This document shows positions 37,516-62,586 of a stretch of 64,000 nt of DNA, piece by piece. The translations under genes and the position numbers were made by a program. The first letter of the stretch is position 1. Each line of letters begins with the position of its first letter. Source of the DNA: Thermoanaerobacterales bacterium (GTDB lineage Bacteria; Bacillota; Thermoanaerobacteria; Thermoanaerobacterales; UBA4877); contig DAIORT010000007.1 in the NCBI GenBank assembly GCA_036752905.1, forward strand, positions 27,105 to 91,104. Reading direction: 5' to 3'. The notes below the pieces were generated by a model that was not told the origin of the DNA, searched no databases, and was given only the letters and a program-made list of their open reading frames with translations.

Positions 37516-37695
37516 GGGTTTTTCCTCCTGATTATCAGTATAACGCATAACCATCTACATTGTCTTGATTTAAATTGCGGTTTTGATATCTTGTATAAAA
37601 GGCGGGATAACTCCATGCGAATATGATACATTATACCATGCTCTGTATACTTCAACTATCGGTAGATATAAAAAAACGCTCATGATGACGAGCGT

Positions 37696-40512: not shown

Positions 40513-40524
40513 TAATTTAACCTC

Positions 40525-41925
40525 CTACCCTATACTGCCATCCATTTCTATATTTATAAGCCTGCTCATTTCCACTGCATACTCCAGCGGCAGCGAACCT
40601 GATATCGGCTCCACAAATCCTTTCACTATCAAGGCTTTAGCATCATCTTCAGAAAGTCCCCTGCTCATCAGGTAATATATCTTTTCCTCGCTGATCTTGC
40701 CTACCTTAGCCTCATAACCCATATCCACCTGGTCATTTTGTATCTCTATTATCGGCAATGTATCATTCCTGGATTTATCATCCAGCATAAGACCCTCGCA
40801 CTGGACGGTGGTCTTAACTCCCGTCGCCTTGGGACCTACCTTGAGAAGCCCTCTGAAATTAGCTATGCCTCCATTTTTAGATATACTCTTGGACAGAACC
40901 TTAGAGGATGTGTCCGGCGCCAGATGCACCATCTTTGCGCCTGTATCCAGATGCTGACCGTGACCGGCAAACGTCACACTGGTGAAATCCGATGTAGCGC
41001 CTTTCCCTCTCAGTACCGACTCTGGATAGAGCATGGTCTTCTTGCTTCCAAAAGAGCCTGAAACCCATATCATGCTGCCTCCCTCATCCACAAGAGCCCT
41101 CTTGGTATTGAGGTTATAGGTGTTCCTGCTCCAGTTTTCTATGGTGGAATAACGGAGCTTGGCACCTTTCTTTACATAAAGCTCAACACAGCCAGCATGC
41201 AGATTGGATACCGCATACTGAGGTGCGGAGCATCCTTCGATATAATGAACATCCGCTCCTTCGTCCACTATGATTAGCGTATGCTCAAACTGCCCGCTTC
41301 CCGGCGCATTCATTCTAAAATAAGCCTGCAGTGGCGTATCCACCTTTACTCCCTTGGGCACATACACAAAACTACCGCCACTCCATATGGCACCATGCAG
41401 AGCAGCAAATTTGTGGTCCGTAGGAGGGACACACTTCATAAAATATTTTTTTATGACATCGGGGTATTTCTGAAGAGCCGTATCAAAGTCTTCAAATATT
41501 ACACCCTGCTTTGACAATTTTTCCTTTATATTATGATATATAATCTCGGAATCGAACTGAGCACCCACTCCGGCAAGATACTCCTTCTCCGCTTCTGGAA
41601 TGCCCAATCTGTCAAAAGTGTCCTTTATATCCTTGGGCACATCATCCCATGTCTTGGACTTTCTTGCATCGGGACTGATATAGGCAACGATATCGTCTAT
41701 GTTCAGTCCGCTTAAATCTACGCCCCACTCAGGCATGGGTTTACTATTATATATCTCCAGAGACTTTAAGCGAAACTCCCTCATCCAGTCAGGCTCATGC
41801 TTTAGGTGGGATATTTCCTCCACAGTCTCCGGTGTAAGACCCTTGGCTGTCTTGTGTTTATACTTTACCTTCGCCTTCATGTTATATCTGGAAAAATCTA
41901 TATCATTTATAACAGTCTTTGACAT
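40525..41925 (-). CDS. sufB: Fe-S cluster assembly protein SufB
   Basis: The translation EPDWMREFRLKSLE...FEHTLIIVDEGADVHYIEGCSAP...IYYLMSRGLSEDDAKALIVKGF is typical of SufB. Confidence 0.9.
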   Translation of the reverse strand: MSKTVINDIDFSRYNMKAKVKYKHKTAKGLTPETVEEISHLKHEPDWMREFRLKSLEIYNSKPMPEWGVDLSGLNIDDIVAYISPDARKSKTWDDVPKDIKDTFDRLGIPEAEKEYLAGVGAQFDSEIIYHNIKEKLSKQGVIFEDFDTALQKYPDVIKKYFMKCVPPTDHKFAALHGAIWSGGSFVYVPKGVKVDTPLQAYFRMNAPGSGQFEHTLIIVDEGADVHYIEGCSAPQYAVSNLHAGCVELYVKKGAKLRYSTIENWSRNTYNLNTKRALVDEGGSMIWVSGSFGSKKTMLYPESVLRGKGATSDFTSVTFAGHGQHLDTGAKMVHLAPDTSSKVLSKSISKNGGIANFRGLLKVGPKATGVKTTVQCEGLMLDDKSRNDTLPIIEIQNDQVDMGYEAKVGKISEEKIYYLMSRGLSEDDAKALIVKGFVEPISGSLPLEYAVEMSRLINIEMDGSIG

Positions 41926-41937
41926 TCTCTCACTCTC

Positions 41938-42690
41938 CTATATAAGCTCCTCTTCCTTTATAGATTCGTAGCCCGTCTTCTCCAGCTCTTTGGCCAGGCC
42001 GCTGTCGCCGACCTTCACAATGCGTCCGTTCATAAGTACATGCACCACGTCGGGCTTCAAATAATCCAGCAGGCGGTTGTGATGGGTAATTATTAGTAAA
42101 GACATGTCCCTTGTCCTAACCTTGTTTATAGACTCTGCCACTATCCTCAATGCGTCTATATCAAGACCGGAATCTATCTCATCAAGCATCACAAGCTTAG
42201 GATTGAGTACGGCCATCTGCAGCACTTCAGCCTTCTTCTTCTCTCCGCCGGAAAATCCCACATTGAGGTACCTCTCTGCGTACTCTTCCTTCATCTCCAA
42301 AAGCTGCATCTTTTCCTTAAGCAGTTTTTTAAATGCCAGTATAGAATGATTTTTACCCGTCACTGTATTTAAAGAAGTCCGGAGGAAATTCTCCAGGGTT
42401 ATGCCCTCTATCTCTTCGGGATATTGGAAAGACAGGAATATACCCTTCCGTGCCCTCTCATCTACCTTCATGCCGGCAATATCCTCGCCCTCAAACAGGA
42501 TTTTGCCTCCATCCACACGGTAAATAGGACTGCCCATTATGCTATTGCAAAGGGTGCTCTTGCCCCCGCCATTAGGTCCCATTATAGCGTGGACCTCTCC
42601 ATCTCCTATGGATAGGTTTATACCTTTGAGTATCTCCTTATCCTCTACACTTACCTTTAGATCTTTTATATCCAATAGTGCTTTGCCCAT
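41938..42690 (-). CDS. sufC: Fe-S cluster assembly ATPase SufC
   Basis: Walker A is GPNGGGKST, the ABC signature is FSGGEKKK, and Walker B is VMLDEIDSGLD. Confidence 0.9.
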   Translation of the reverse strand: MGKALLDIKDLKVSVEDKEILKGINLSIGDGEVHAIMGPNGGGKSTLCNSIMGSPIYRVDGGKILFEGEDIAGMKVDERARKGIFLSFQYPEEIEGITLENFLRTSLNTVTGKNHSILAFKKLLKEKMQLLEMKEEYAERYLNVGFSGGEKKKAEVLQMAVLNPKLVMLDEIDSGLDIDALRIVAESINKVRTRDMSLLIITHHNRLLDYLKPDVVHVLMNGRIVKVGDSGLAKELEKTGYESIKEEELI

Positions 42691-42913
42691 ATGTTTCTCC
42701 TTTCAAATCTAATTCCAAGTGTTTTACTATGAATTCTATTTAATTTATATCATAATAATGAAATAAATACAAGTATCTCAAGATTATATTTTACCCAGAG
42801 TTACGACTTGAAATACAGCTAACAATTAACAAGCTTAACTCGGAATTGTTACTAGGAAAATATGATTATATGTGATATAATATTTGTACAATATACCGAA
42901 AGGAGGAAATAAT

Positions 42914-43714
42914 ATGGCTGATTATTTATCCAGAGGAGATTCACCATTCTCCACAGAAAAATGGGCCGACATCGATGATGCTGTTGTTAATGCCGCTAAA
43001 TCGACACTTATCGGCAGGAAATTTATACCGCTTTACGGTCCTGTAGGACCCGGCACCTTTGTAGTAGCAAAAGACAAACTTGTTGAAGGTGAGGGTAATA
43101 TAGTAGGAAGCAGCGGTAAAACATTCATTCCGCTAAATACACTTTATCGTGATTTTATTTATCCTTGGAGAGACATAGAATATTTTGAGGAAAATAACCT
43201 TCCTTTGGACCTCTCCAGAGTCTCGTACGCAGCACGGCTTCTATCTTTAGAGGAGGACAAGCTGCTGTTTTACGGTGACAGCGAAAGAGGTATCGAAGGT
43301 ATACTTAATGCGGAAGGCCGGCAGGAATACACCACAGGTGACTGGGAAGAAGGAAGCGCCTATGATGACGTCACAAAGATACTCTCTCTCCTTAGAAGCA
43401 AGAATATGCTTGATCCATATGTGTTGGTGGTAAGCCCGGATATATATGCCGAGCTCAATAAAGTTTACAAGGATACACCATATTTGGACTCCGAAAGAAT
43501 AGAGAAACTAGGTGTTAAAATATACAGCTCACCGGCGCTAAAGGAAAACGACGGATTTATGGTGTCCGTAAGCAAAGATCATATGGACCTGGCCATAGGT
43601 CAGGATATCATCACAACATTCCTTGAGACAACGGATATGAACCATTACTTCAGGATAATGGAAATACTTGGTCTCAGGGTAAAGAATGCCGAGAGCATCG
43701 TTACTCTTAAGTAA
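42914..43714 (+). CDS. Family 1 encapsulin nanocompartment shell protein (Linocin_M18 / HK97 fold)
   Basis: The 266-aa protein is colinear in pattern with Thermotoga-type encapsulins. The N-terminus reads LSRGDSPFSTEKWADIDDAVVNAAKSTLIGRKF, compared with [22 protein letters not shown]...LYGRKF. The segments PYVLVVSPDIYAEL and DLAIGQDI also match. The RBS is AGGAGG. Confidence 0.85.
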   Translation: MADYLSRGDSPFSTEKWADIDDAVVNAAKSTLIGRKFIPLYGPVGPGTFVVAKDKLVEGEGNIVGSSGKTFIPLNTLYRDFIYPWRDIEYFEENNLPLDLSRVSYAARLLSLEEDKLLFYGDSERGIEGILNAEGRQEYTTGDWEEGSAYDDVTKILSLLRSKNMLDPYVLVVSPDIYAELNKVYKDTPYLDSERIEKLGVKIYSSPALKENDGFMVSVSKDHMDLAIGQDIITTFLETTDMNHYFRIMEILGLRVKNAESIVTLK

Positions 43715-43730
43715 AAGGAGGAATAAATAA

Positions 43731-44039
43731 ATGGCAGACGTAGGAAGCAGCTATAAAACAGAGGGATTGGAACAGTTTCTGATCTGGCTGAGGGAAGACA
43801 TAGCGGGAGAGATTGATGCTATGGACGACTATCAGTATCATATAGACTCCATAGACATACCCGAGATGAAAGAGATATTATCCCACATAAGGGATGAGGA
43901 GAAAGAACATCTGGCGGAGCTTACCGATCTCCTGCGCAGGTATGACAATGTGCAAAACGTTAAATTCGAAGAGGATGACTTCGCAGGTGGAACAAAATCT
44001 GACGAGGCATCTGACGGATTCACAGTAGGACAAGCTTAA
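43731..44039 (+). CDS. Encapsulated ferritin-like protein (EncFtn-type candidate cargo)
   Basis: The 102-aa protein has a Glu/Asp-Tyr block (GEIDAMDDYQYH) and an ExxH block (RDEEKEHLAEL) as in EncFtn di-iron sites. A disordered acidic linker leads to the C-terminal DGFTVGQA, which resembles T/I-V/I-G-S-L type targeting peptides. The gene is 16 nt downstream of the shell gene. Confidence 0.65.
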   Translation: MADVGSSYKTEGLEQFLIWLREDIAGEIDAMDDYQYHIDSIDIPEMKEILSHIRDEEKEHLAELTDLLRRYDNVQNVKFEEDDFAGGTKSDEASDGFTVGQA

Positions 44040-44063: not shown

Positions 44064-44095
44064 CGCACCCTTGATATATCAGGGTGCGTTTTTTT
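44064..44095 (+). terminator. Rho-independent terminator of the encapsulin operon
   Basis: CGCACCCTtgatatatcAGGGTGCG is followed by TTTTTTT. Confidence 0.8.
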
Positions 44096-44171
44096 ATGAC
44101 GGTAACTATATCAAAGTGCAGCAAGACCATTAGTTTGATATAATATATATAGATAAATTTGTACAACCGAG

Positions 44172-46130
44172 GTGACACAATTGACTCCGCTACTGATAAA
44201 AGGCCGGGCCGCAAGCGGCTTAACCACCTGTCTCATAGATAAACTAAAAGACCTCGCCGGAAGGTGCCCGCGTACAGACGGCATACTTTTCCTTACACTT
44301 AATAAACCCAATATGAACTATATAAAGGAAAATATAAACCTCCAGGCGGATACCGGCATAAACATAACAACCTTTCCCCGGTTTATAACCGATGAACTCG
44401 TACTTTTCTGGCCGCTGGTGATTCAAAGTTGCAAGGACATACCCGGGGGGCGGTCCACACCCGTACTGATAGACTCCCTTACCTCCCACGATATTATGAG
44501 ACGCATAGTGGAAAAGCTTCAGCTAGGCGGCGCCTTTGCAGACGTAAAGTCAACATCGGACAGTATATCCCTTGAGATAATGCATAACTTATCCCGGGCG
44601 GTTTTCTCCCTCAGGGATTATCATGACATCTCAGGCGTGCTCTCCAAAGCAAACCCCAACAGGGATAAGTCGATATACGAGGACATGCAGAAGGCCCTCG
44701 ATAAATACATAGATATCCTTAAGAAAAGTGGGTTTATAGACTACGGCCTGGCCATGCATCTCTATGGCAAATGCCTCCTGAATAATGATATTTACCGTAG
44801 GTATTTTAAAAATACATACAGGTACCTGTTTGCAGACAATCTGGAAGAGTCCGTTCCCGCGATGGTGCACTTCATCTCCATCTTCCTGGATGATTTCGAC
44901 GAGGCCTGCCTGACCTTTTCCACAGATGGAGGATATACGACCGTCCTGGGAGCCTCGCCGGACTACGCCTTAAAACAGCTTGAAGGCAGATGTGAGGTTA
45001 AACAGATGGGAAATGCATATAACTGCCCTAATGATATAAAAGATCTGGCGGATACGCTGGAGAAGAACATATGCGGCGCTACCGATGCGTCCTGCTCCAC
45101 TTTTGTCCGCCTTATAGAGTGTGAATACAAAAGCGACATGATGACTGCAGCCGTGGGCGAAGTGAGAAAGCTGGTATCATCCGGATTAAAACCGGGGGAG
45201 ATATCTCTCATAGCCCCTTACCTGGATCCGGTCACAGAGGAGCTGCTACTATCCGGGCTTAAGTCGCAGGGCATTCCCGGCCTGGCCCTGACCAATACAG
45301 GCAGACTGATAGACCAGCCTTTCATAGGTATAGTCGTGACTCTAACCATGCTGGCGCACCCCTGGTGGGGCATACACCCTAGCCACAGCGAGCTGGCGGA
45401 GACATTCAGGGTTTGTTTTAATATGGACCCGGTCAGAGCATCCATACTGGCGGATGTTGCACAAAACAAAAAATCACTTTCCCACCTCAGCTGTCAGGAC
45501 TTGATGCGTGTTGGATTCGCCACTAATGCGAAATATGAATCCCTGCTGGACTGGCTGGGCAGCTATACTCAGGAGATTCCCATAGACGAGTTTCTGGAAA
45601 AACTACTTTGGGATTATCTCATACCCCTTCCGGCGGCACAGGACAATATACTGGCCACCCGGCGGCTCATTGATATGGCCGCTAGCTATAAAAAGACAAT
45701 GGAGATAATGCAGCCGGACAAAATGTATGATGCAGACTTTATTAAATCGGTAAAACGCGGAATAAAGGGAATGGAGATACTCGGCGAAAAGCCGAGAGAT
45801 GCTGTGGTCATAGCAACACCCTATTCATATCTTATGAATCCCATCATTTCTGCAGCACAGATATGGCTGGACGTCTCCGACAAGGATTGGGAAGACAGCG
45901 GGGTAAGGTCTCTATCCAACCCATATCTTTTCCATCCGGGATACGGCGGTATATGGGACACCTGCCAAGAAGAGCAATGCTCCCGCAAGATGCTATGCTG
46001 CCGCGTGGTAAATCTCACGAAGCACTGCACCGGCAGTCTTACGGTGATAAACTGCCGGCTCACAGCCGGTTTTTCCGAGCAGAACGGCATGCTGGTAGAC
46101 TACCTTAAAAATGCATGCAATATGACATAG
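44172..46130 (+). CDS. AddB-like inactivated SF1 helicase-fold protein (degenerate Walker A, no nuclease domain)
   Basis: The N-terminus LLIKGRAASGLTTCLIDKL aligns with AddB FLVGRSGSGKTKLI, but the Walker Lys is replaced by Leu. ITTFPRF and YLFADNLEES sit at the positions of motifs III and II without catalytic residues. The C-terminal tail is Cys-rich. The start is either GTG 44172 or TTG 44181 (after GAGGTG). Confidence 0.6.
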   Translation: MTQLTPLLIKGRAASGLTTCLIDKLKDLAGRCPRTDGILFLTLNKPNMNYIKENINLQADTGINITTFPRFITDELVLFWPLVIQSCKDIPGGRSTPVLIDSLTSHDIMRRIVEKLQLGGAFADVKSTSDSISLEIMHNLSRAVFSLRDYHDISGVLSKANPNRDKSIYEDMQKALDKYIDILKKSGFIDYGLAMHLYGKCLLNNDIYRRYFKNTYRYLFADNLEESVPAMVHFISIFLDDFDEACLTFSTDGGYTTVLGASPDYALKQLEGRCEVKQMGNAYNCPNDIKDLADTLEKNICGATDASCSTFVRLIECEYKSDMMTAAVGEVRKLVSSGLKPGEISLIAPYLDPVTEELLLSGLKSQGIPGLALTNTGRLIDQPFIGIVVTLTMLAHPWWGIHPSHSELAETFRVCFNMDPVRASILADVAQNKKSLSHLSCQDLMRVGFATNAKYESLLDWLGSYTQEIPIDEFLEKLLWDYLIPLPAAQDNILATRRLIDMAASYKKTMEIMQPDKMYDADFIKSVKRGIKGMEILGEKPRDAVVIATPYSYLMNPIISAAQIWLDVSDKDWEDSGVRSLSNPYLFHPGYGGIWDTCQEEQCSRKMLCCRVVNLTKHCTGSLTVINCRLTAGFSEQNGMLVDYLKNACNMT

Positions 46131-46157
46131 TGGCACAATATATCAGGGGGATTTAAT

Positions 46158-48311
46158 ATGAAGCTACGAAAAGACATAAGTGACTTAATAGATTTATACA
46201 ACGGAGGCTGCCTGGCCGTGCCGTCCGTTCCCGGAGCAGGCAAGACCACTCTTCTGACTCATTTAACCTTCCATATACTGAAGACACAGCCGAACTCGCG
46301 AATATTGATTGTTACGTACATGAACTCCGCGGTGGCCAACTTCAAGCAGAGGATAAACGATCTTCTTAAAGGTGGCGGAATACACTCATCAAATTACGAT
46401 GTGATGACTCTGCATGCCCTGGCCTCATCCGTCATAGGCAGCAATCCTGCCGTGCTTGGCCTGGCCAAGGACTATGAGATACTGAGTGAAACGGATACCG
46501 CCGAAATACTCAAAGAATCTATTAAGGCCTGGCTCTCGACCAATACCGACCTTTTCTACTCTAAATTGTTCATAAAGGAGAGCACCCCTCCTTCCCGGGT
46601 TGAGAAAAATAAGGTCCGGTATCTAAAAGAATTTACCTCGGATGTAAGCAAGGCCATCTCCATGTTTAAGGGCGATAACATTACTCCTTCCGAGCTGCTC
46701 GCCTATACAGGCAGCCTGCCCGAAGATTCCTATCTCCGCTGGGCGGCAGATATATACGATATATATGAAGACAGGCTGAGGCTGCGCGGTGCAATAGACT
46801 TCGGTGATCTTCTCATGCTGGCTTACCGCTTGCTTACATCAGACCGTGAAATACTCTCACAGTTCCAGGATAAATGGGACTATGTTTTTGAGGATGAAGC
46901 GCAGGACTCTAATAAATTGCAAAACGAGATAATGAATCTTATATCAAACTACGGCAATCTCGTACGTGTAGGAGACCCCAACCAGGCCATCCTTTCCACA
47001 TTCACCATAGCGGACCCTAAACAATTCACCGACTTCATCATGTACAATAAGACCAAAGAGATAAAGACATCAGGCAGAAGCTCGCTGGAAATAATCAGGC
47101 TGGCCAACCATCTTGTAGAAAGCAGCTTATCCATGGCGGAGCTCTCCCCTGTTAAAGGTGCATTGGAAAACCAAATGATAAAGCCCGCGGGATGTGAAAA
47201 CCCCCAGAACCCCAAATACGGCGTAGGATACTATGAACCGGAAAACTTGGACAAAGAATATGAATATATCGCTGTCCTTACAAAAAAGTATTTAGAACTT
47301 CACCCTGATAAAACTTGTGCCATATTGCTCCGGACAAACAACCAGGTGAAAAACATGATGGAGGTACTACAAGACAGGGGGATTGAGTCCTTGGAGGTAT
47401 CCAACTACTCCTCAATAAACACAGTAACCAAACAGATAAACTGCTGCCTTAAGTTTATAAACAGACCGGAGGTCTCCGACAACCTGATAGATGTCCTCAG
47501 GTATGTGCTGGCCCCAGAAATAAAATCTGTCCACACTATAAACCTATTTATGCACGACTGTCGCACGGAAGATTTGCTCTACCCCATGGACAAGGTGCCG
47601 TCTTTACCGGATGGCGTTACAAAACAAGAGGGGAATTATTTCTACGGTGCATTAACCAAGGCAAGGGAACTATTATCTGCGGGAAATATGAGGATAGACA
47701 AATTAATCATATATATACTGGACCTCATTAAGGCGGACGGCGATGACCGGGCCATAGGCGAAGCTATAGCCGAGGAGGCCCGCAGGAGGTTATATGACCC
47801 CGGCTGGAAGATTGAGAATGTTATAGATGAGCTCAGCTCTTCGCAAAACAGGTACAGCGACCTGGTTAACATATTTTATCAGAGGAAGGGCTTTACGGCC
47901 CGGCCAGGCCAGGCCATGGTACTCACCTATCACAAAGCCAAGGGCCTGGAATGGGATAATGTCTTTATGGGGTGCGTAGAGGCCGCGGACTTTCCCCTGC
48001 TCCTCTCCCACAGCTTCATGGGTGAAACATGGTACCTTAAGGATGAATGGCGTAATCCCTCTGCACTCATAGAAGCGGAATATAAAAACCTGACAGGCAA
48101 AAAGTTAGATCCGGACTTCAAGAAGCAGGCCAAGCTCAATATAATAGCGGAAAATCTGCGCCTGCTGTATGTGGGCATCACACGGGCAAAACAAACCCTG
48201 ATAATAACCGGCCACAAAAACGGCTTCTACGACCGGCCATTGGATAACCGTATCTTCGAAAAGATTTTCGGTGACTTTATAAATAAGGAGAGATCCTCAT
48301 GGATGATATAA
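46158..48311 (+). CDS. UvrD/Rep/AddA-type SF1A DNA helicase (all motifs intact, no nuclease domain)
   Basis: Walker A is PGAGKTT, motif Ia TYMNSAVANF, motif II FEDEAQDS and motif III GDPNQAI. Motif V is TYHKAKGLEWDNVF and motif VI is YVGITRAKQTLIITG. Confidence 0.85.
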   Translation: MKLRKDISDLIDLYNGGCLAVPSVPGAGKTTLLTHLTFHILKTQPNSRILIVTYMNSAVANFKQRINDLLKGGGIHSSNYDVMTLHALASSVIGSNPAVLGLAKDYEILSETDTAEILKESIKAWLSTNTDLFYSKLFIKESTPPSRVEKNKVRYLKEFTSDVSKAISMFKGDNITPSELLAYTGSLPEDSYLRWAADIYDIYEDRLRLRGAIDFGDLLMLAYRLLTSDREILSQFQDKWDYVFEDEAQDSNKLQNEIMNLISNYGNLVRVGDPNQAILSTFTIADPKQFTDFIMYNKTKEIKTSGRSSLEIIRLANHLVESSLSMAELSPVKGALENQMIKPAGCENPQNPKYGVGYYEPENLDKEYEYIAVLTKKYLELHPDKTCAILLRTNNQVKNMMEVLQDRGIESLEVSNYSSINTVTKQINCCLKFINRPEVSDNLIDVLRYVLAPEIKSVHTINLFMHDCRTEDLLYPMDKVPSLPDGVTKQEGNYFYGALTKARELLSAGNMRIDKLIIYILDLIKADGDDRAIGEAIAEEARRRLYDPGWKIENVIDELSSSQNRYSDLVNIFYQRKGFTARPGQAMVLTYHKAKGLEWDNVFMGCVEAADFPLLLSHSFMGETWYLKDEWRNPSALIEAEYKNLTGKKLDPDFKKQAKLNIIAENLRLLYVGITRAKQTLIITGHKNGFYDRPLDNRIFEKIFGDFINKERSSWMI

Positions 48312-49036
48312 AAGAAATGTACTTCAGCCAGACAGCGCTTCGGACTTACCTCAGCTGTCCATACAGATTTAAAAAAAGATATATAGACGGACTTTATTGG
48401 AGATATGAATCAGACTCAATACAACTGGGTAGTGAGTTCCACCTGGATATGAAGAGGCACTTTCTCGGCCTCCCTCTTTCAGGCAAAAACAGCAATCTCG
48501 TGTCGGCTGCCACGATGTTTCTGCCCATGGAGGCCGGTAAAAAATACCTGCCCGAGTACACCCTCAGATATAACGATAACTCGGTAAAAATCACTGTAAG
48601 ATATGATCTGCTTGTCATAGGAGATACAATTGAGATATATGACTGGAAGGTGGGAAAATCCAAGCTCAATGCATCCAAACTCGCAACCGACATCCAGACG
48701 CAGCTCTATCTCTATACTATGGCATCGGCTGGTCAAATAATAAAAAAGGATATGGAACCGGCAGATATATCCATCACCTACTTCAATCCCTTCCATCCTT
48801 CCTCTCCCGTCCATATAAACTACGACTCATACAAATTAGATAAGAATCGCATCTATATATCCGGCCTGGTTAGCCGCATACTTAAGGACAGCGAATACGC
48901 ACTCACCACAGACAAACGGAAGTGTATTCACTGTGAATACAACAGGTTATGTAACGGCAAGTCCGTATCCGCCCGCAGCATCAATGGCCAGGACAGCGAT
49001 CTAAGCTGGGATGACATTGAAGAAATAAGCTTTTAA
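48299..49036 (+). CDS. PD-(D/E)XK nuclease with Cas4/AddB-type 4-Cys (Fe-S) signature
   Basis: There is an N-terminal Cys (YLSCPYRFKKRY). The nuclease core is RYDLLV...IEIYDWKVGK, followed by QTQLYLY (QxxxY). The C-terminus carries CIHCEYNRLC (C-x2-C-x5-C). The gene overlaps the helicase gene by 13 nt. Confidence 0.75.
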   Translation: MDDIKEMYFSQTALRTYLSCPYRFKKRYIDGLYWRYESDSIQLGSEFHLDMKRHFLGLPLSGKNSNLVSAATMFLPMEAGKKYLPEYTLRYNDNSVKITVRYDLLVIGDTIEIYDWKVGKSKLNASKLATDIQTQLYLYTMASAGQIIKKDMEPADISITYFNPFHPSSPVHINYDSYKLDKNRIYISGLVSRILKDSEYALTTDKRKCIHCEYNRLCNGKSVSARSINGQDSDLSWDDIEEISF

Positions 49037-49056: not shown

Positions 49057-50415
49057 TTATAAACTCTCCTGTTCGGCAGTAACAATCTTATCCTGTATAA
49101 CCTTTTCACCACTTGTAAACTTTTTCGGCCATCTTATTATAATAAATAAAGTAGCAAAGAAGAACATCAAATAACAATACCACACATAAGGTGAAATAGA
49201 TATGGGCGGAATCCCTGCGATACTGCCCGCTATAAGCAGCTGGCTGGCATAAGGAAGAGTACCATTAAACACACATGAGTAAATATCCACAATGCTGGCC
49301 ACCCTTCGCCGGTCAATGCCCAGGTCATCTGCAATCTTGCATGAAATAGGTGTCGTAGTGATAATGGATATGGTGTTGTTTGCCGTGGCAATATCCACCA
49401 AGCTGGCAAGAGCAGCAATACTCAGCTCACCGCCACGCGCCGTCTTTGCTTTCTTAGTCAGTTTAGCCAACAGATAATCAATTCCCCCAAAGTACTTCAT
49501 GAGTGCGACCATCCCGCCGACAAGAACAGCAACAAGAGCAATATCTTCCATGCTAATCATGCCTTCATGCATGATTTTCAAAGCAGAAAAGAAAGTAAAG
49601 TCATGATGTGCTATCCCGATAAACGTACCGCTTAAAATTCCCAAAACCATTATAGGCAGTACATTCATACCCGTAAAAGACAAGACAATGATAACTAAAT
49701 AAGGAATGAGATTAACAAGATTAAAACCTTGAGCCAGTGACTGGCTTGCAACATTTATCGGTTGAAAAGCTAATAAAATAACGGTTGCTATGCAAGCAGG
49801 CATTACCATAGGAAGATTTGCCCTGAATTTGTCTCTGTTCTCTATACCCGCCAATTTTGTCGCAGCTATGGTCGTGTCGGAAATAAAAGAAAGCTCGTCG
49901 CCAAACATAGCTCCACCCACAACAATTCCACAGACCAGCGCTAGATTGCTGTTGGTTTTAGCAGCCATATCCATTCCGATGGGAATTAAGGCTGCAATGG
50001 TCCCCATCGAGGTTCCCATGGCAAAGCTGATGATGCAGGATATAATGAACAAACCTGGCAGAACAAACCGCGCAGGTAATATAGTAAGCCCCAGATTTAC
50101 AAAGGTATCTACGGCATGCATCTTACTTGTTATACCAAAAAAAGCACCCGCCAGCAGGAAAATGAGCACCATGAGGATAAGTGTGTCATCACCGCCGCCC
50201 TTACAAAAAATCGTTACCCTTTCCTCAAAGTCAGTGTGCTCACCCTCTCTGTCCGGTAAGAAAAACGCTATTATACAGGCTATGGTTATCCCTATCATTA
50301 AAGGCATATTATCAAAGCTACCAGAGATAAAACCCGATAGTAGATAGAGCACCAGGAAAACAACTAACGGTAATAACCCCCAAATGCTCCCTTCATTATG
50401 CTTTTCATTCTTCAC
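49057..50415 (-). CDS. nhaC: Na+/H+ antiporter, NhaC family
   Basis: The 452-aa polytopic protein has the pattern and length typical of the NhaC family. Confidence 0.75.
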   Translation of the reverse strand: MKNEKHNEGSIWGLLPLVVFLVLYLLSGFISGSFDNMPLMIGITIACIIAFFLPDREGEHTDFEERVTIFCKGGGDDTLILMVLIFLLAGAFFGITSKMHAVDTFVNLGLTILPARFVLPGLFIISCIISFAMGTSMGTIAALIPIGMDMAAKTNSNLALVCGIVVGGAMFGDELSFISDTTIAATKLAGIENRDKFRANLPMVMPACIATVILLAFQPINVASQSLAQGFNLVNLIPYLVIIVLSFTGMNVLPIMVLGILSGTFIGIAHHDFTFFSALKIMHEGMISMEDIALVAVLVGGMVALMKYFGGIDYLLAKLTKKAKTARGGELSIAALASLVDIATANNTISIITTTPISCKIADDLGIDRRRVASIVDIYSCVFNGTLPYASQLLIAGSIAGIPPISISPYVWYCYLMFFFATLFIIIRWPKKFTSGEKVIQDKIVTAEQESL

Positions 50416-50776: not shown

Positions 50777-50863
50777 ATATAAACGTAAGAAGGAAACAGC
50801 ACAAGAAGGCTGTTTACCAATATGGCATGGATGCCAAATATAATATTTCAAGGAGGAAGTAGA

Positions 50864-51745
50864 ATGATAATAAACCACAATATAGCTGCCTTAAACACAT
50901 ACAGACAGTTATCAGTAAACAACTCAACAACACAGAAGTCGTTAGAAAAGCTTTCATCCGGTTTAAGGATAAACCGCGCAGGCGATGACGCCGCAGGCTT
51001 AGCTATATCCGAGAAAATGAGAGGACAGGTAAGAGGCCTGGACCAGGCCACAAGGAATGCGCAGGACGGCATATCTCTGATACAAACCGCCGAGGGCGCG
51101 TTAAATGAGACGCACAGTATACTGCAGAGGATGAGGGAGCTGGTAGACCAGGCAGCCACTGAAACAAACGGCACTGATGACAGAGCCAATATACAGAAGG
51201 AAATTGATCAATTAAGTAAAGAAATCGACAGAATTTCTACAGACACTGAATTCAACAAAAAAACTTTGTTAGATGGAAGTTTCTCCGATAAAGAATTAAA
51301 CTTCCAAATAGGCGCTAATGCTAAGCAGTTTATAGGCCTGAACATTGGCAATATGGACGCAACATCACTCAGTGTAGACGGTATAAAAGTCACTGATACC
51401 ATTGAAGAAGTAGACGATACGGATCCTGATAATCCAGTTACGACAGAAGTTGATATTACCTCAGATGAAATATCAGAACAACTTGATACAATCGATGCTG
51501 CAATCAATAAAGTATCCGAGCAAAGGGCAAACCTAGGTGCTGTACAAAACAGGTTGGAGCACACCATAAACAACCTGGGTACATCATCCGAAAACCTCAC
51601 GGCTGCAGAGTCACGTATAAGGGATGTGGACATGGCTAAAGAGATGATGACATTCACGAAGAACAACATACTCCAGCAGGCAGCCACGGCCATGCTGGCA
51701 CAGGCCAATGCACAGCCTCAGACAGTGCTTCAGCTTTTAAGATAG
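50864..51745 (+). CDS. fliC: Flagellin
   Basis: The N-terminus is MIINHNIAALNTYRQL...LSSGLRINRAGDDAAGLAISEKMRGQVRGL. The C-terminus is RLEHTINNL...AMLAQANAQPQTVLQLLR. Start ATG 50864 follows AAGGAGGA. Confidence 0.95.
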   Translation: MIINHNIAALNTYRQLSVNNSTTQKSLEKLSSGLRINRAGDDAAGLAISEKMRGQVRGLDQATRNAQDGISLIQTAEGALNETHSILQRMRELVDQAATETNGTDDRANIQKEIDQLSKEIDRISTDTEFNKKTLLDGSFSDKELNFQIGANAKQFIGLNIGNMDATSLSVDGIKVTDTIEEVDDTDPDNPVTTEVDITSDEISEQLDTIDAAINKVSEQRANLGAVQNRLEHTINNLGTSSENLTAAESRIRDVDMAKEMMTFTKNNILQQAATAMLAQANAQPQTVLQLLR

Positions 51746-57883: not shown

Positions 57884-57932
57884 TTATACAATATTGTATA
57901 AAGTTGTACAAACACTGTCTACCATTAAACAC
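57884..57932 (-). promoter_or_regulatory. Candidate UAS for a sigma-54 activator (18-bp perfect palindrome plus a conserved distal box)
   Basis: TTATACAATATTGTATAA at 57884-57901 is a perfect palindrome. The minus strand reads GTGTTTAATGGTAGACAGTGTTTGTACAACTTTATACAATA, matching 20391-20452 (23 of 27 positions in the distal box). Confidence 0.55.
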
Positions 57933-59969: not shown

Positions 59970-60377
59970 ATGAAAATAATCAATGTTAATACTCATGTAA
60001 GAAATGAATTTGTAGATATTACCCGGGAAATAGAAAAAATTGTCACATCATCAGGTTTAAGTGAGGGTGCTTGCTTAGTATATGTACCCCATACCACGGC
60101 GGGCGTTATGATTAATGAGAATGCAGACCCTGATGTGATGCATGACATAGATGATTTTCTGAGGAGAATGGTGCCGAAAAGCTCGAATTTCGCGCACATG
60201 GAGGGTAATTCGGATGCACATATAAAATCAGGCCTTGCCGGCCCATCCATATTGGTGCCGATAAGTAAGAGCAGCCTGGCCCTTGGCAGGTGGCAGGGGA
60301 TATATTTTGCCGAGTTTGACGGTCCGAGGCACAGGAACGTTTACATAACCATGCTGAGGGGTGCAGTCAATGACTGA
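59970..60377 (+). CDS. yjbQ: YjbQ/UPF0047 family protein (secondary thiamine-phosphate synthase)
   Basis: The translation FVDITREIEKIV...VYVPHTTAGVMINENADPDV..DI...HMEGNSDAHIKS...GRWQGIYFAEFDGPR is the canonical UPF0047 pattern. Confidence 0.85.
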   Translation: MKIINVNTHVRNEFVDITREIEKIVTSSGLSEGACLVYVPHTTAGVMINENADPDVMHDIDDFLRRMVPKSSNFAHMEGNSDAHIKSGLAGPSILVPISKSSLALGRWQGIYFAEFDGPRHRNVYITMLRGAVND

Positions 60378-62586
60378 TGCAGCTGCTAGCATACCCTATG
60401 AGGTTCTGCAGGCCTGCGGTTTTAATGAGCTGGCTGCTTATATTTTGTACAAACGCGGGTTTAAAGACGGTGAGGTTATAAGGGAGTTTCTCAATCCCAA
60501 CGAATACCGGCCGACAGACCCCTTCGAATTTGAAGACATGAATTTAGTCATCAAAAGGATTCACAATGCGATAGCTGGAAAAGAAAGAATCCTTGTATAC
60601 GGTGATTATGATGTGGATGGAATAACATCGGCTGCCATACTTTGCTTGACATTAAAATCCATGGGAGCGGATGTGACATACCATCTTCCGGACAGATTTT
60701 CCGAAGGATACGGGATGAGCATGGATGTCATCGGCAATATGCCACATCAGGGCATAAAGCTCATATTAACCTGTGACTGCGGCATCAGCAACCTTAAGGA
60801 GATAGAGTATGCAAATTCCCTAGGGATTGAGACCATAGTGACCGACCACCATACCCCGCCCGACGTCCTGCCTCCCGCCCTGTATATTTTAAACCCCAAA
60901 TTTTTCCCCGAGGATCATCCCGCGAGGAACATAGCAGGCGTAGGGATGGCTTATTTCCTATCCAAAGCCCTTATCGGTGATGCGGCCGATGATTTTCTGG
61001 ACCTGGCAGTTTTGGGGACCATTGCGGACTCTGTTCCTTTAAACCGCGAAAACCGTTATATACTGCAGAAGGGATGGGACGGCCTTATCTCCGGCAGGCG
61101 GCCTGGCCTGGCCGCACTATTTAATATAGCACATCTCAAGGAAAACATCACGGAGGAGGACATAGCCTTCCAGATAGTACCCCGGCTGAATTCCGCGGGT
61201 AGGATGAACACGGCCGTGCTCTCATTAAAGCTGCTCACCGAGGACAACCCACGTTTATGTTTAGGCCTGGCTAAAACACTGAACAAACTGAACTCCAACA
61301 GAAAAAAGATTCAAAAGCAGATATTAGAAGAAGCAGAGGAAAAAATAGAAAAAGAAAAACTATATGAAAACGGCATAATCGGGCTGTATAGTCCACAATG
61401 GCATCAAGGTATTATAGGCATTGCAGCCGGCAGGATAACGGAACATTACGGGTTGCCTTGCCTACTCATGGCAAAAAGCAAAGACGGCCGAATTATAGGT
61501 TCTGCCCGTTCTATAGAGGGCGTGTCCATATATGATATACTATCAGGCTGTTCGGACTGCCTTGCAGGTTTCGGCGGGCATGCCATGGCTGCCGGTTTTT
61601 CACTGGAGGAGGAACAGCTGGACAGTTTCCTGCAAAAACTCTTAACATTCGGCAAAGATGTACAGCGGACGGCAACAGGAGCATCGGTAGAACCCGAACT
61701 GGAACTTTTACCAGAACAGATAAACCGGGATACCTACCACACGGTAAGAGGCCTGGCCCCTTTTGGCGAGGACTTCCCTGCTCCAGTCTTCATGACCCGA
61801 TGCATGGAGGTTATAGAAGATCAGTACCGGGGATTTCACCGCATGATAATAGGACTGGACGGAAGGAGGCTTCATGCCTTATGGTGGGACGGGCCAAAAA
61901 AGGAAATCACGCCCGGCTACTATGATGTAACATACGCCATCAACATGGATAAATACAGGGATGTGATCTCCATTACCATTGCAGATATGGCCAAGGTAAT
62001 GTCCCCGGCCAGGCCGATGCCTGTCCCTGTGGTCACGGACTTAAGGGACAAAAATATTGACGAGATAGCAAAACAGGACGGCTGCATTTATTATGAAGGC
62101 CTGGCCGATTTTGGCCTGCAAGTATTCACCCGGGACACACTCCCCCAGTGTGACAGGCTTATCATGCTGTCCACCCCTCCTTCACCCGGCGTGCTTCGGG
62201 ATGTAGTGTTCATAGCAAACCCAAAAGAGGTTCTCCTGTACTTTGCCGCACAAAACCCGCCAAATCCCGATATGTTAAAAAATCTAATGGGAATTATAAA
62301 GTATGCGCAGGCAAATGATAAGACCACGGATATCCGCTTCCTTGCCTCCCAGCTGGGAATCACGGAGATGGCAACCCTGCAGAGCCTCAAATATCTCGAG
62401 TCAACCGGCCTTGTGGAACTGGAGGAAATAAACCGCCAAACATACTATGTAGTCATAAAGGGAGACCGAAAGAGAGAAGATCTTCAGCTTAAAAACAGAC
62501 TTACATCCTTATTTAATGAAATTAACAGCTTTAAATCATGGCTAAGGGCAGCCGATACAGAACAAATAAAAGACCTGCTCAAATAA
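60370..62586 (+). CDS. recJ: Single-stranded-DNA-specific exonuclease RecJ (DHH/DHHA1) with a long C-terminal extension
   Basis: The DHH motifs are VYGDYDVDGITS, LTCDCG, IVTDHH and AGVGMAYF. The DHHA1 motif is GGHAMAAG. I chose ATG 60370 (GAGGGG 9 nt upstream). It overlaps the yjbQ stop. Confidence 0.85.
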   Translation: MTDAAASIPYEVLQACGFNELAAYILYKRGFKDGEVIREFLNPNEYRPTDPFEFEDMNLVIKRIHNAIAGKERILVYGDYDVDGITSAAILCLTLKSMGADVTYHLPDRFSEGYGMSMDVIGNMPHQGIKLILTCDCGISNLKEIEYANSLGIETIVTDHHTPPDVLPPALYILNPKFFPEDHPARNIAGVGMAYFLSKALIGDAADDFLDLAVLGTIADSVPLNRENRYILQKGWDGLISGRRPGLAALFNIAHLKENITEEDIAFQIVPRLNSAGRMNTAVLSLKLLTEDNPRLCLGLAKTLNKLNSNRKKIQKQILEEAEEKIEKEKLYENGIIGLYSPQWHQGIIGIAAGRITEHYGLPCLLMAKSKDGRIIGSARSIEGVSIYDILSGCSDCLAGFGGHAMAAGFSLEEEQLDSFLQKLLTFGKDVQRTATGASVEPELELLPEQINRDTYHTVRGLAPFGEDFPAPVFMTRCMEVIEDQYRGFHRMIIGLDGRRLHALWWDGPKKEITPGYYDVTYAINMDKYRDVISITIADMAKVMSPARPMPVPVVTDLRDKNIDEIAKQDGCIYYEGLADFGLQVFTRDTLPQCDRLIMLSTPPSPGVLRDVVFIANPKEVLLYFAAQNPPNPDMLKNLMGIIKYAQANDKTTDIRFLASQLGITEMATLQSLKYLESTGLVELEEINRQTYYVVIKGDRKREDLQLKNRLTSLFNEINSFKSWLRAADTEQIKDLLK

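What the first reader, a model, noticed from the sequence alone, without database searches (positions are those of the whole stretch)
44172..49036. Three-gene helicase-nuclease module that looks like a split, rearranged AddAB
Seen in sequence:
- Three co-directional genes have their own promoter region, downstream of a strong terminator at 44064-44095. The A/B gap is 27 nt and B/C overlap by 13 nt.
- Gene A (652 aa) has an AddB-like N-terminus, but the Walker A is degenerate (GRAASGLT instead of GRSGSGKT). Its helicase motifs are decayed (ITTFPRF, ADNLEES) and it has no nuclease domain.
- Gene B (717 aa) is a complete SF1A UvrD/AddA-type helicase, with PGAGKTT, DEAQD, GDPNQAI, KGLEWDNVF and ITRAKQTL, but it lacks the C-terminal RecB nuclease of AddA.
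- Gene C (245 aa) is a stand-alone PD-(D/E)XK nuclease. It has the QxxxY motif and the C...C-x2-C-x5-C Fe-S signature shared by AddB nuclease domains and Cas4.

Established knowledge: canonical Firmicute AddAB is two roughly 1150-1250-aa proteins, each carrying its own C-terminal nuclease.

Inference: this is a single-motor, single-nuclease, three-subunit variant in which the AddB nuclease has been split off and placed after the motor gene. It could be a minimal end-resection machine or a helicase-nuclease immunity/anti-plasmid module. I do not recognise this architecture as a named system.
Basis: partly seen in the sequence, partly recalled or inferred. Interest (0 to 1): 0.75.

Follow-up and report, generated by a model that had tools for sequence, protein, structure and literature searches.

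The report
Split helicase-nuclease repair operon, RecJ-linked
These three genes are real and are the local copy of a widespread, uncharacterised operon (dead helicase, live helicase, iron-sulfur nuclease, usually followed by RecJ) that most likely builds a DNA-break-resecting machine which works like AddAB/AdnAB but is made of separate proteins.

Summary
A probably starts 9 nt later, at TTG 44181.

- **A** is a full-length UvrD-fold protein with no nuclease domain. Its family keeps the Walker A motif and the motif II Asp but never the catalytic Glu, which is the same decay pattern as AddB's inactivated helicase domain.
- **B** is an intact SF1A UvrD/PcrA-type motor.
- **C** is a Cas4-family PD-(D/E)XK nuclease with an invariant D-DxK, QxxxY and four Cys.

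The trio is not a local oddity. The order A-B-C recurs in Bacillota, Chloroflexota, Rhodothermota and other phyla. In two MAGs A and B are fused into one protein. In 14 of 25 complete loci RecJ follows C directly, and once an SbcC/Rad50-like gene follows RecJ. The window itself has a RecJ 11 kb downstream.

Contexts are mostly housekeeping. I found no phage copies and no match to a known defence system. In close relatives the trio sits at the same syntenic position.

Best reading: an AddAB/AdnAB-like end-resection complex built from separate subunits, with RecJ as the 5'-strand nuclease. It is not an AddAB family member by sequence. I found no paper that characterises it. I could not test whether host genomes also carry canonical addAB.

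The parts
44064..44095 (+). Intrinsic terminator ending the upstream encapsulin/EncFtn operon. It separates that operon from the trio.
   Evidence: Stem C44064-G44088 (about 10 bp, one bulge, loop TATA) followed by a T-run at 44089-44095. Read from the sequence. The scan found the inner stem at 44069-44084.
44136..44144 (+). Candidate extended -10 promoter element (TGATATAAT) for the A-B-C transcript. The -35 element is weak.
   Evidence: Read from the sequence. The consensus scanner did not list it because the -35 is poor. This is inference only.
44181..46130 (+). Gene A. Nuclease-less, catalytically dead SF1A (UvrD-fold) subunit of 649 aa counted from TTG 44181. Predicted role: AddB/RecC-like lagging domain or scaffold.
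   Evidence: - ORF; RBS and start codon.
- AlphaFold model with pLDDT 89.7.
- Foldseek hits to UvrD (5e-21), AddB 4cej_B (2e-19, TM 0.63-0.65) and AdnAB chain B (TM 0.69).
- Motif II is D222-N223 where PcrA and B have D-E, and the motif III Gln is lost.
- Across the family, 0 of 117 matched motif II sequences read 'DE'.
46158..48311 (+). Gene B. Intact SF1A UvrD/PcrA-type helicase (717 aa) with no nuclease domain. Predicted lead 3'-to-5' motor.
   Evidence: - Pfam UvrD-helicase 2e-43, UvrD_C 3e-24.
- Best PDB sequence hits are PcrA (8e-24) and UvrD.
- Motifs I, II, III, V and VI are intact.
- Always found directly after A, and fused to A in L040 and L041.
48299..49036 (+). Gene C. Cas4-family PD-(D/E)XK nuclease (245 aa) with a four-Cys Fe-S 'iron staple' and a conserved acidic C-terminal tail. 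Overlaps B by 13 nt.
   Evidence: - Pfam PDDEXK_1 4e-23.
- A 21-sequence alignment has invariant C20, H48, E86, D103, D115, W116, K117, Q133, Y137, C209, C212 and C218.
- Profile hits to ACE1 9iac_A (3e-6) and the AdnB nuclease domain (3e-4).
60361..62586 (+). RecJ (741 aa; DHH + DHHA1 + RecJ_OB). Probable detached fourth member of the module. In many other genomes RecJ immediately follows C.
   Evidence: - Pfam domains.
- 34-37% identity over the full length to the operon-linked RecJ of L047 and L011 (E 1e-122 and 6e-109), and 28-29% to those of L044 and L042.
- Best PDB match is RecJ 8y30_A (3e-87).
- The functional link to the trio in this genome is inferred from the operons elsewhere.

Best explanation
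A, B and C encode the subunits of one helicase-nuclease that processes DNA ends. It is a functional analogue of AddAB/AdnAB assembled from separate polypeptides, and in most lineages it is co-transcribed with the 5'-to-3' ssDNA exonuclease RecJ.

**Proposed mechanism (inferred from AddAB and AdnAB)**
- The complex binds a duplex end.
- B, the only competent SF1A motor, translocates 3'-to-5' on the 3'-ended strand and unwinds the duplex.
- A is a UvrD-fold domain that in most family members can still bind nucleotide but cannot hydrolyse it. It sits behind B as the lagging domain or strand channel, the position taken by the AddB and RecC inactivated helicase domains. It could act as a scaffold or as a sequence scanner.
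- C, a Cas4/AdnB-type Fe-S nuclease that is translationally coupled to B, cuts one unwound strand.
- RecJ degrades the 5' strand. It thereby supplies the nuclease activity that AddB and AdnA carry as a fused C-terminal domain.
- The product is a 3' ssDNA tail for RecA loading. Degradation of linear foreign DNA would be a by-product, as it is with RecBCD.

**In this genome**
- The trio is inherited vertically.
- A has additionally lost its Walker A lysine.
- RecJ lies 11 kb away rather than adjacent.

**Shown:** domain identities, the motif states, conservation of gene order, the fusions, the RecJ linkage and the synteny.
**Inferred:** complex formation, strand assignment, and the role in double-strand-break repair.
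For: **The three genes form a unit**
- Among 33 non-redundant loci that have at least 3 kb of sequence after A, B directly follows A or is fused to it in 29.
- Among those 29, a PDDEXK_1 gene follows B in 25.
- These loci span Bacillota (Calorimonas group, Symbiobacteriaceae, Clostridium estertheticum/frigoriphilum), Chloroflexota, a Salinibacter plasmid, and Gammaproteobacteria and Vampirovibrionales MAGs.
- A and B form one ORF of about 1375 aa, followed by an overlapping nuclease gene, in L040 and L041.
- Start and stop codons overlap in L044, L045 and L047, and B and C overlap by 13 nt in the window.

**Link to DNA repair**
- RecJ follows C within 1.3 kb in 14 of the 25 complete loci. In 13 of them it follows directly; in L046 a methyltransferase gene lies between C and RecJ.
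- In L044 an SbcC/Rad50-like ATPase with a zinc hook follows RecJ.
- The window has its own RecJ at 60361-62586.

**A resembles an inactivated helicase domain**
- A's model is a full SF1A fold. It matches AddB, AdnAB chain B and RecC with lower rmsd (7-9 A) than UvrD (about 12 A).
- The family keeps the Walker A Lys in 116 of 141 members and keeps the motif II Asp, but never the catalytic Glu (0 'DE' among 117 matched).
- AddB is described in the same terms in PMC3321194.

**B and C look catalytically competent**
- B has all the helicase motifs.
- C has an invariant catalytic set and four invariant Cys.

**Context and inheritance**
- Neighbouring genes are mostly housekeeping: tRNA synthetases, smpB, parAB/yidC.
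- In the Calorimonas clade the trio sits at the same position (suf operon, encapsulin, trio, flagellin). Its divergence follows the same ranking across relatives as the flanking core genes.

**Precedent for the strand assignment**
Against: - No experiment and no multimer model supports the complex. Which strand C cuts is unknown.
- I could not search any host genome for canonical addAB/recBCD/adnAB, so redundancy versus replacement is open. Clostridium species generally carry AddAB (my own knowledge, untested here). If C. estertheticum does too, the module is an accessory system there.
- The distribution looks patchy. One copy is on a 56-kb plasmid.
- Some loci have A alone (L006, L038, L043) or with only RecJ nearby (L029). 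Others lack C next to B (L031, L032, L039), and 11 of 25 complete loci lack an adjacent RecJ.
- The window's A has lost the Walker A Lys. If nucleotide binding matters for the family, it has been dispensed with here.
- The window's RecJ may simply be the ordinary housekeeping RecJ.
- The model of C failed (pLDDT 35), so there is no structural evidence for the nuclease.
Confidence: 0.6

Rival explanations
1. A dedicated anti-plasmid or anti-phage immunity module. A helicase-nuclease would recognise and destroy invading DNA, in the manner of Gabija, the UvrD-Cas4 fusions, or Argonaute-associated Cas4 nucleases.
For: - C's closest solved relatives are Argonaute-associated ACE1 nucleases, whose identity comes from PMC12094033.
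- PADLOC gives GajB-like hits for B and Cas4-like hits for C.
- One copy lies on Salinibacter plasmid pSR56.
- Defence-type genes sit next to the trio in some loci: AbiEii in L003, type III CRISPR-Cas in L008, Mrr in L047, and a methyltransferase inside the operon in L046.
- In S. elongatus, loss of uvrD, recJcy, cas4 or the 665-aa COG0210 protein Synpcc7942_0992 improves plasmid maintenance and transformation (PMC10653904). Homology of those genes to A, B, C and RecJ was not tested.
Against: - The PADLOC hits are generic domain hits. No GajA or other system partner is present.
- There are no relatives in 50,697 phage records or in IMG/VR, and only 2 of 72,556 plasmids carry an A homologue.
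- Most neighbourhoods are housekeeping.
- In the window's clade the position is stable and divergence follows the flanking core genes, while the defence genes nearby are the variable insertions.
- The linkage to RecJ and SbcC points to repair. RecBCD-type enzymes restrict foreign DNA as a by-product anyway.
Confidence: 0.15
2. A helicase-nuclease-RecJ set that acts on some DNA transaction other than double-strand-break resection. Examples are processing of stalled or reversed replication forks, gap repair, handling of incoming transforming DNA, or production of small DNA fragments (for instance Argonaute guides or CRISPR prespacers).
For: - UvrD/PcrA-type helicases and RecJ act at forks and gaps in model bacteria (as discussed in PMC10653904).
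- Cas4-family enzymes trim ssDNA (PMC12094033).
- The cyanobacterial screen links uvrD, recJcy and cas4 to Argonaute-dependent interference.
- A type III CRISPR locus is adjacent in Calorimonas.
Against: - The combination of a dead helicase domain, a live SF1A motor and an Fe-S RecB-type nuclease is, among characterised systems, specific to the end-resection enzymes AddAB, AdnAB and RecBCD.
- No Argonaute or CRISPR adaptation genes are linked in the loci examined.
Confidence: 0.17
3. Three unrelated DNA-metabolism genes that happen to be adjacent, with A a decaying pseudo-helicase that has no function.
For: - A's Walker A motif is degenerate in this genome.
- One metagenomic contig has A split into two ORFs.
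Against: - The gene order is conserved across several phyla, A::B fusions exist, and the genes are translationally coupled.
- The A family has about 450 clusters (at 50% identity) of mostly full-length proteins at E<1e-30, with many conserved positions outside the ATP site.
- The AlphaFold model of A is confident.
Confidence: 0.03

Closest known systems
AddAB (RexAB) helicase-nuclease of Bacillota, e.g. B. subtilis (PDB 3U44, 4CEJ)
   Same: - One active SF1A motor plus one inactivated UvrD-fold domain that keeps only Walker A and the motif II Asp.
- A RecB-type nuclease stapled by a 4-Cys Fe-S cluster.
- The gene for the inactive subunit precedes the motor gene.
- A's model superposes on AddB with TM 0.63-0.65.
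   Different: - Three polypeptides instead of two.
- One nuclease instead of two, and no nuclease fused to either helicase-like subunit.
- RecJ is co-encoded.
- No detectable sequence relationship of A to AddB or of C to the AddB nuclease in profile searches.
- B scores 90 bits against an AddA cut-off of 708.
- Whether any Chi-like sequence is recognised is unknown.
AdnAB of mycobacteria (PDB 6PPR, 6PPU)
   Same: - The order 'lagging subunit then lead motor subunit'.
- The C profile matches the AdnB nuclease domain (E 3e-4), and B's C-terminal region matches AdnB (7e-11).
- A's best TM-score (0.69) is to AdnAB chain B.
- Splitting adnB and removing the nuclease from adnA would give the order A-B-C.
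   Different: - AdnA keeps Walker A and Walker B and hydrolyses ATP, and both subunits carry nucleases (PMC3321194 and PMC5314763).
- A lacks the catalytic Glu and has no nuclease.
- RecJ is linked here, whereas no RecJ-like 5'-3' exonuclease has been characterised in mycobacteria.
RecBCD
   Same: - A heterotrimer in which an inactivated helicase-fold subunit (RecC) accompanies an SF1A motor-nuclease.
- A's model matches RecC with TM 0.55-0.56.
- RecJ can stand in for the RecBCD nuclease in some mutant backgrounds.
   Different: - There is no RecD-type SF1B second motor.
- The nuclease is a separate Fe-S protein.
- RecC has no nucleotide-binding site, whereas most A proteins keep Walker A.
Unfused UvrD + Cas4-like operon noted by Hudaiberdiev et al. 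2017 (PMC5704561)
   Same: They describe a UvrD gene and a PF12705 Cas4-like gene in a predicted operon, 'mostly Clostridiales', in non-defence contexts, and suggest DNA repair. This is probably the B-C pair of this module.
   Different: - In the passages I read, that paper mentions neither the A subunit nor the RecJ linkage, and it offers no experiment or mechanism.
- I could not see its Figure 6, so identity with this family is not verified.
UvrD + RecJ end resection in RecBCD/AddAB-less bacteria (Deinococcus RecFOR/ESDSA pathway) and the RecJ avenue in B. subtilis
   Same: A UvrD-family or other helicase unwinds while RecJ degrades the 5' strand. This is my own knowledge for Deinococcus. 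The B. subtilis 'AddAB or RecJ' avenues are stated in the abstract of PMC4499154.
   Different: In those systems the helicase and RecJ are encoded separately, and there is no dedicated dead-helicase subunit or Fe-S nuclease.

Membership tests
AddAB | Two subunits of about 1150-1250 aa, each with a C-terminal RecB-type nuclease domain | tested here: not met
   A (649-652 aa) and B (717 aa) consist of the helicase fold only. The nuclease is a separate 245-aa protein.
AddAB | AddB-type inactivated SF1A domain that keeps motif I (Walker A) and the motif II Asp but lacks the other helicase motifs | tested here: met
   The A family keeps the Walker A Lys in 116 of 141 members, keeps the motif II Asp, and never has the catalytic Glu. 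Motif III is degenerate. The AddB description is in PMC3321194. In the window's own A the Walker A Lys is replaced by Leu.
AddAB | Sequence membership in the addA/addB equivalog models | tested here: not met
   B scores 90.4 bits against TIGR02785 (cut-off 707.65). A matches no NCBIfam model. The A and C profiles hit no AddA or AddB chain in the PDB at E<=10 and E<=1 respectively.
AddAB | Fe-S cluster nuclease with one N-terminal and three C-terminal Cys | tested here: met
   C20, C209, C212 and C218 are invariant in 21 C-family sequences. Cluster binding itself was not tested.
AddAB | Chi-regulated resection of double-strand-break ends | not testable with these tools
   This needs biochemistry or genetics.
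AdnAB | Two tandem SF1A domains that both hydrolyse ATP, and two nucleases | tested here: not met
   A lacks the catalytic Glu of motif II and the Gln of motif III. Only one nuclease gene is present.
RecBCD | RecD-type SF1B second motor, and a RecC subunit with no nucleotide site | tested here: not met
   No RecD-like gene occurs in the operon or its relatives. The only RecD hits are marginal matches of B's motif VI (E 0.01). Most A proteins keep Walker A.
Cas4 family / PF12705 PD-(D/E)XK nucleases (gene C) | D...DxK catalytic core, QxxxY motif and a four-Cys iron staple | tested here: met
   D103, D115-W-K117, Q133...Y137 and the four Cys are invariant. PDDEXK_1 scores 82.9 bits against a cut-off of 22.
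CRISPR-associated Cas4 proper | Match to the Cas4 models above threshold, and linkage to cas1/cas2 | tested here: not met
   PF01930 scores 16.6 bits (cut-off 22.7) and TIGR00372 scores 19.6 (cut-off 65). No cas1 or cas2 is adjacent in the window or in most loci.
Gabija (GajA/GajB) | UvrD-like GajB paired with an OLD-family ATPase-nuclease GajA | tested here: not met
   Only GajB-type helicase models hit A and B. No GajA-like protein is in the operon. The partner genes are a PDDEXK_1 nuclease and RecJ.
PcrA/UvrD/Rep housekeeping helicases (gene B) | Equivalog-level similarity to PcrA, UvrD or Rep | tested here: not met
   B scores 144 bits against a PcrA cut-off of 911 and 107 bits against a UvrD cut-off of 1144. 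It is a distinct SF1A paralogue.

The most novel reading that the evidence does not exclude
A-B-C-RecJ is a fourth architectural class of bacterial double-strand-break resection machine, alongside RecBCD, AddAB and AdnAB. In it the dead-helicase subunit, the motor and the Fe-S nuclease are separate proteins, and RecJ is the integral 5'-strand nuclease. It would serve as the main or sole end-resection enzyme in lineages such as Chloroflexota, Symbiobacteriaceae and the Calorimonas group. Dispersed versions of it (uvrD, cas4-like, recJcy, Synpcc7942_0992) might explain the plasmid-interference and transformation phenotypes seen in cyanobacteria, most of which lack RecBCD and AddAB.
Probability: 0.35. 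Interest if true: 0.85.

Novelty: new variant of a known kind. Interest (0 to 1): 0.68.

Why it matters
Bacterial recombinational repair is taught around three end-resection machines: RecBCD, AddAB and AdnAB. The RecJ-plus-helicase route is treated as a loose back-up. This operon physically links the two ideas. It encodes an AddB-like dead helicase, a UvrD-type motor, an Fe-S nuclease and RecJ together.

The A family alone has about 450 sequence clusters (at 50% identity) across several phyla, and almost all are annotated 'hypothetical protein'.

If the operon is a resection complex, three things follow:
- It would fill a gap for phyla whose end-processing enzyme is unclear.
- It would give a natural 'exploded' version of AddAB in which each activity can be deleted or purified on its own.
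- It would show a second, independent conversion of a UvrD-like motor into a non-hydrolysing strand-handling domain.

It may also bear on how Argonaute guides and anti-plasmid effects arise in bacteria without RecBCD or AddAB.

Tried and rejected
- **Word-indexed homologue searches.** Searching with A, C and the A-family alignment returned only the close Calorimonas-group relatives. The third search was effectively wasted, because Walker A words swamped the candidate list.
- **Genome scan with the 27-sequence alignment.** A smaller alignment worked.
- **Structure of C.** The shallow six-sequence alignment gave an unusable model (pLDDT 35.5), so I ran no fold search for C. I used a profile-versus-PDB search instead.
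- **Known defence systems.** PADLOC gave only generic GajB and Cas4 domain hits, so I rejected membership of any catalogued system.
- **Phage or mobile-element origin.** There was no hit in INPHARED phages or IMG/VR, and only two plasmid hits.
- **SOS regulation.** No Cheo/LexA box (GAAC-N4-GTTC) occurs anywhere in the window.
- **Horizontal-transfer signal.** The trio's G+C (0.47-0.48) is within the window's range of 0.36-0.51.
- **Literature.** Searches on AddAB/Cas4/UvrD, on RecJ/UvrD-like/Cas4-like, on helicase-nuclease/RecJ/AdnAB and on COG2887 found no paper characterising this operon.
- **Cyanobacterial link.** I tried to establish whether Synpcc7942_0992 is an A-family protein. I obtained only its length (665 aa) and its COG0210 label from the supplement. 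No sequence was obtainable, so this stays a lead.
- **Names for family members.** Cluster look-ups of ten A-family representatives gave only 'hypothetical protein'.
- **Canonical addAB/recBCD in the host genome.** This could not be checked. The window itself has no ORF over 741 aa.

Full report
**1. Observation**

A is 44172-46130, B is 46158-48311 and C is 48299-49036, all on the + strand. The A/B gap is 27 nt and B and C overlap by 13 nt.

Upstream, a stem-loop with a T-run at 44064-44095 ends the encapsulin/EncFtn operon. An extended -10 element, TGATATAAT, lies at 44136-44144.

One correction: GAGGTG at 44169-44174 followed by TTG at 44181 is the more likely ribosome-binding site and start. 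This gives the 649-aa product that gene callers report, and the orthologue N-termini align there.

**2. What the three proteins are**

*B* is an intact SF1A helicase.
- It matches Pfam UvrD-helicase (2e-43) and UvrD_C (3e-24).
- Its best solved relatives by sequence are PcrA and UvrD.
- It is not an equivalog of PcrA, UvrD, Rep or AddA.

*C* is a PDDEXK_1/Cas4-family nuclease.
- In a 21-sequence alignment of orthologues from several phyla, the catalytic D103, D115-x-K117 and Q133-xxx-Y137 are invariant.
- The four Cys (C20, C209, C212, C218) are also invariant.
- Its profile finds Argonaute-associated ACE1 (3e-6), the AdnB nuclease domain (3e-4) and Cas4 (0.08) in the PDB, but no AddA, AddB or RecB chain.

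*A* is barely recognisable by sequence (UvrD-helicase E 0.013, no NCBIfam model).
- An exhaustive profile search shows a large family: 450 cluster representatives at E<1e-30, mostly full-length proteins of 650-750 aa.
- With a 27-sequence alignment, AlphaFold gives a confident model (pLDDT 89.7, pTM 0.87).
- The model is a complete four-subdomain SF1A fold with no extra domain.
- It matches UvrD/PcrA/Rep (E about 1e-20), AddB (2e-19, TM 0.63-0.65, rmsd 7.3-7.6 A), AdnAB chain B (TM 0.69) and RecC (TM 0.55-0.56).
- Alignments to PcrA and to its own partner B place A's D222-N223 on the D-E of motif II, and a degenerate 'TDGG' on motif III 'GDxxQ'.
- Across 141 full-length family members, 116 keep the Walker A lysine. 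The residue after the motif II Asp is N in 96 and is never E (0 of 117 matched).
- So the family looks able to bind nucleotide but unable to hydrolyse it.
- That is how the AddAB structure paper describes AddB's inactivated helicase domain: only motif I and a Mg-coordinating Asp survive (PMC3321194).
- The K-to-L change in the window's A is shared only with its closest relative.

**3. The trio is one module, and it is widespread**

A scan of one genome per species found 32 loci. Targeted look-ups and a plasmid search added more.

| Criterion | Count |
|---|---|
| Non-redundant loci with at least 3 kb after A | 33 |
| B follows A directly or is fused to it | 29 of 33 |
| A PDDEXK_1 gene follows B | 25 of 29 |
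| RecJ follows C within 1.3 kb | 14 of 25 |

- The hosts include the Calorimonas/Thermoanaerobacteraceae group, Symbiobacteriaceae, Clostridium estertheticum and C. frigoriphilum, other Bacillota MAGs, Anaerolineae, Chloroflexia and Caldilineae.
- They also include a Gemmatimonadota MAG, Salinibacter ruber plasmid pSR56 and an Ilyobacter megaplasmid (A alone).
- In a Gammaproteobacteria MAG and a Vampirovibrionales MAG, A and B are a single ORF of about 1375 aa followed by an overlapping nuclease gene. Such a fusion argues for physical association of A and B.
- Start and stop codons overlap in several operons.

**4. The missed clue: RecJ**

- A full-length RecJ (DHH + DHHA1 + RecJ_OB, about 750-790 aa) follows C within 1.3 kb in 14 of the 25 complete loci, including the Salinibacter plasmid. 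In 13 it follows directly.
- In L046 a DNA methyltransferase gene is inserted between C and RecJ. In L044 an SbcC/Rad50-like ATPase with a zinc hook follows RecJ.
- The window has its own RecJ at 60361-62586 on the same strand. It is 28-37% identical over its full length to the four operon-linked RecJ proteins tested, 34-37% for the two closest.
- It is separated from C by 11 kb that holds an NhaC antiporter, flagellin, thiamine genes, an oxidoreductase and a glycosyltransferase.
- In relatives this stretch is variable. It holds a flagellin-glycosylation island in L003 and type III CRISPR-Cas in Calorimonas adulescens L008. A formerly contiguous A-B-C-RecJ operon split by insertions is therefore plausible, but not shown.

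**5. Repair or defence?**

Evidence for repair:
- The module is linked to RecJ and SbcC.
- Neighbouring genes are housekeeping: tRNA synthetases, smpB, parAB-yidC-jag.
- There are no relatives in phage collections, and only two plasmid hits.
- No catalogued defence system matches.
- In the window's clade the position is strictly syntenic: suf operon, encapsulin-EncFtn, trio, flagellin. Divergence follows the same ranking across relatives as the flanking core genes, and A, B and C are about as divergent as SufD.

Evidence for defence:
- There is a plasmid copy.
- Defence genes are occasionally adjacent (AbiE, CRISPR, Mrr, a methyltransferase).
- C is similar to ACE1.
- A published cyanobacterial screen found that loss of uvrD, recJcy, cas4 and a 665-aa COG0210 'hypothetical' protein raises plasmid maintenance and transformation (PMC10653904).
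- I could not obtain those sequences, so their homology to A, B, C and RecJ is only a lead.
- An end-resection nuclease would restrict linear foreign DNA as a side effect, so these observations do not contradict the repair reading.

**6. Mechanism (inferred)**

This follows AddAB and AdnAB (PMC3321194 and PMC5314763).
- B is the lead 3'-to-5' motor on the 3' strand.
- A is the lagging, non-hydrolysing domain through which that strand passes. It may be a scaffold or a sequence scanner.
- C is the Fe-S nuclease.
- RecJ removes the 5' strand, replacing the nuclease domain that AddB and AdnA carry.
- If B-C is a split AdnB/AddA-type subunit, C would act on the 3' strand. The B/C overlap and the AdnB similarity suggest this.
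- If C is functionally AddB-like, it would act on the 5' strand together with RecJ.
- This point is unresolved.

**7. Comparison and membership**

- The system works like AddAB/AdnAB/RecBCD but fails membership of each.
- It has no fused nucleases, and only one nuclease.
- It shows no equivalog-level or even profile-level sequence link of A to AddB or of C to the AddB nuclease.
- It has no RecD.
- A is not an active second motor as AdnA is.
- Hudaiberdiev et al. 2017 noted an unfused UvrD plus Cas4-like operon 'mostly in Clostridiales' in non-defence contexts and suggested repair. That is probably the B-C pair.
- In the passages I read, they describe neither the A subunit nor the RecJ linkage.
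- I found no characterisation elsewhere.

**8. Limits**

- There is no multimer prediction and no usable model of C.
- I had no access to whole genomes to test co-occurrence with addAB/recBCD.
- The pattern-based locus scan samples the family unevenly.
- Counts come from tblastn and Pfam on flanks of 10 kb or less.

**9. Verdict**

This is a new architectural variant of a known kind of machine, and the family is essentially unannotated. Interest 0.68.

Noticed in passing
window 42884-44039 (+) and 37583-42690 (-): An encapsulin (Linocin_M18) gene and an encapsulated-ferritin (EncFtn) cargo gene sit next to the divergently transcribed sufCBDS-nifU Fe-S assembly operon. The arrangement is conserved in all close relatives.
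   Followed up: partly
L003 7188-9874; L008 11053-20494; window 49057-50415: The flanks of the trio are a hot spot for variable genes in relatives. L003 has AAA_14/DUF4143 + DUF6088 + AbiEii between EncFtn and A. Calorimonas adulescens has a type III CRISPR-Cas locus with Card1 after C. The window has an NhaC antiporter there.
   Followed up: partly
window 49001-49033 (C residues 235-245) and alignment A4: C-family proteins end in a conserved acidic-aromatic tail. It reads LSWDDIEEISF here, and the consensus is W-D-D-[IVL]-x-E-[IL]-[SP]-[FY]. It recalls the C-terminal tip of SSB (DDDIPF, my own knowledge) and may be a docking peptide. The Clostridium estertheticum and C. frigoriphilum copies lack it.
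   Followed up: no
L040 9455-13582; L041 228-4349: In a Gammaproteobacteria MAG and a Vampirovibrionales MAG, A and B are fused into one protein of about 1375 aa, followed by an overlapping PDDEXK_1 gene. L040 also has a DUF2779/Cas4-like gene downstream.
   Followed up: yes
L044 17494-20061: In one genome (a 1.5-Mb contig, near parAB/yidC/jag) the operon continues after RecJ with an SbcC/Rad50-like ATPase that carries a zinc hook. No SbcD was seen in the 22-kb stretch.
   Followed up: partly
L046 14238-15347; L047 7905-8900: An N6/N4 DNA methyltransferase gene is inserted between C and RecJ in L046. An Mrr-type restriction nuclease gene lies just upstream of A in L047.
   Followed up: no
L009 5849-7583; L033 9989-14583: In a JGI metagenome contig of the Calorimonas type, A is broken into two ORFs (440 + 136 aa). 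In one Chloroflexia MAG the whole operon is fragmented. These are either pseudogenes or sequencing frameshifts.
   Followed up: no
L006, L029, L038, L043: Some genomes carry an A-family gene without B or C beside it. In L029 a RecJ lies 4 kb downstream, behind unrelated genes. So the module can be dispersed, or A may have a function of its own.
   Followed up: partly
literature: S. elongatus Synpcc7942_0992, _0517: In a published RB-TnSeq screen, loss of ago, cas4, uvrD, recJcy (0517, about 775 aa from the gene length) or 0992 (665 aa, COG0210, 'hypothetical') improves RSF1010 maintenance and natural transformation. These may be a dispersed cyanobacterial counterpart of A/B/C/RecJ (PMC10653904). 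Homology was not tested.
   Followed up: partly
window 50822-51745 and 57925-59889: A flagellin gene and a GT2-TPR glycosyltransferase lie between the trio and RecJ. In the relative L003 the same position holds a flagellin-glycosylation-type gene set (MptE-like, sugar epimerases, an aminotransferase).
   Followed up: no
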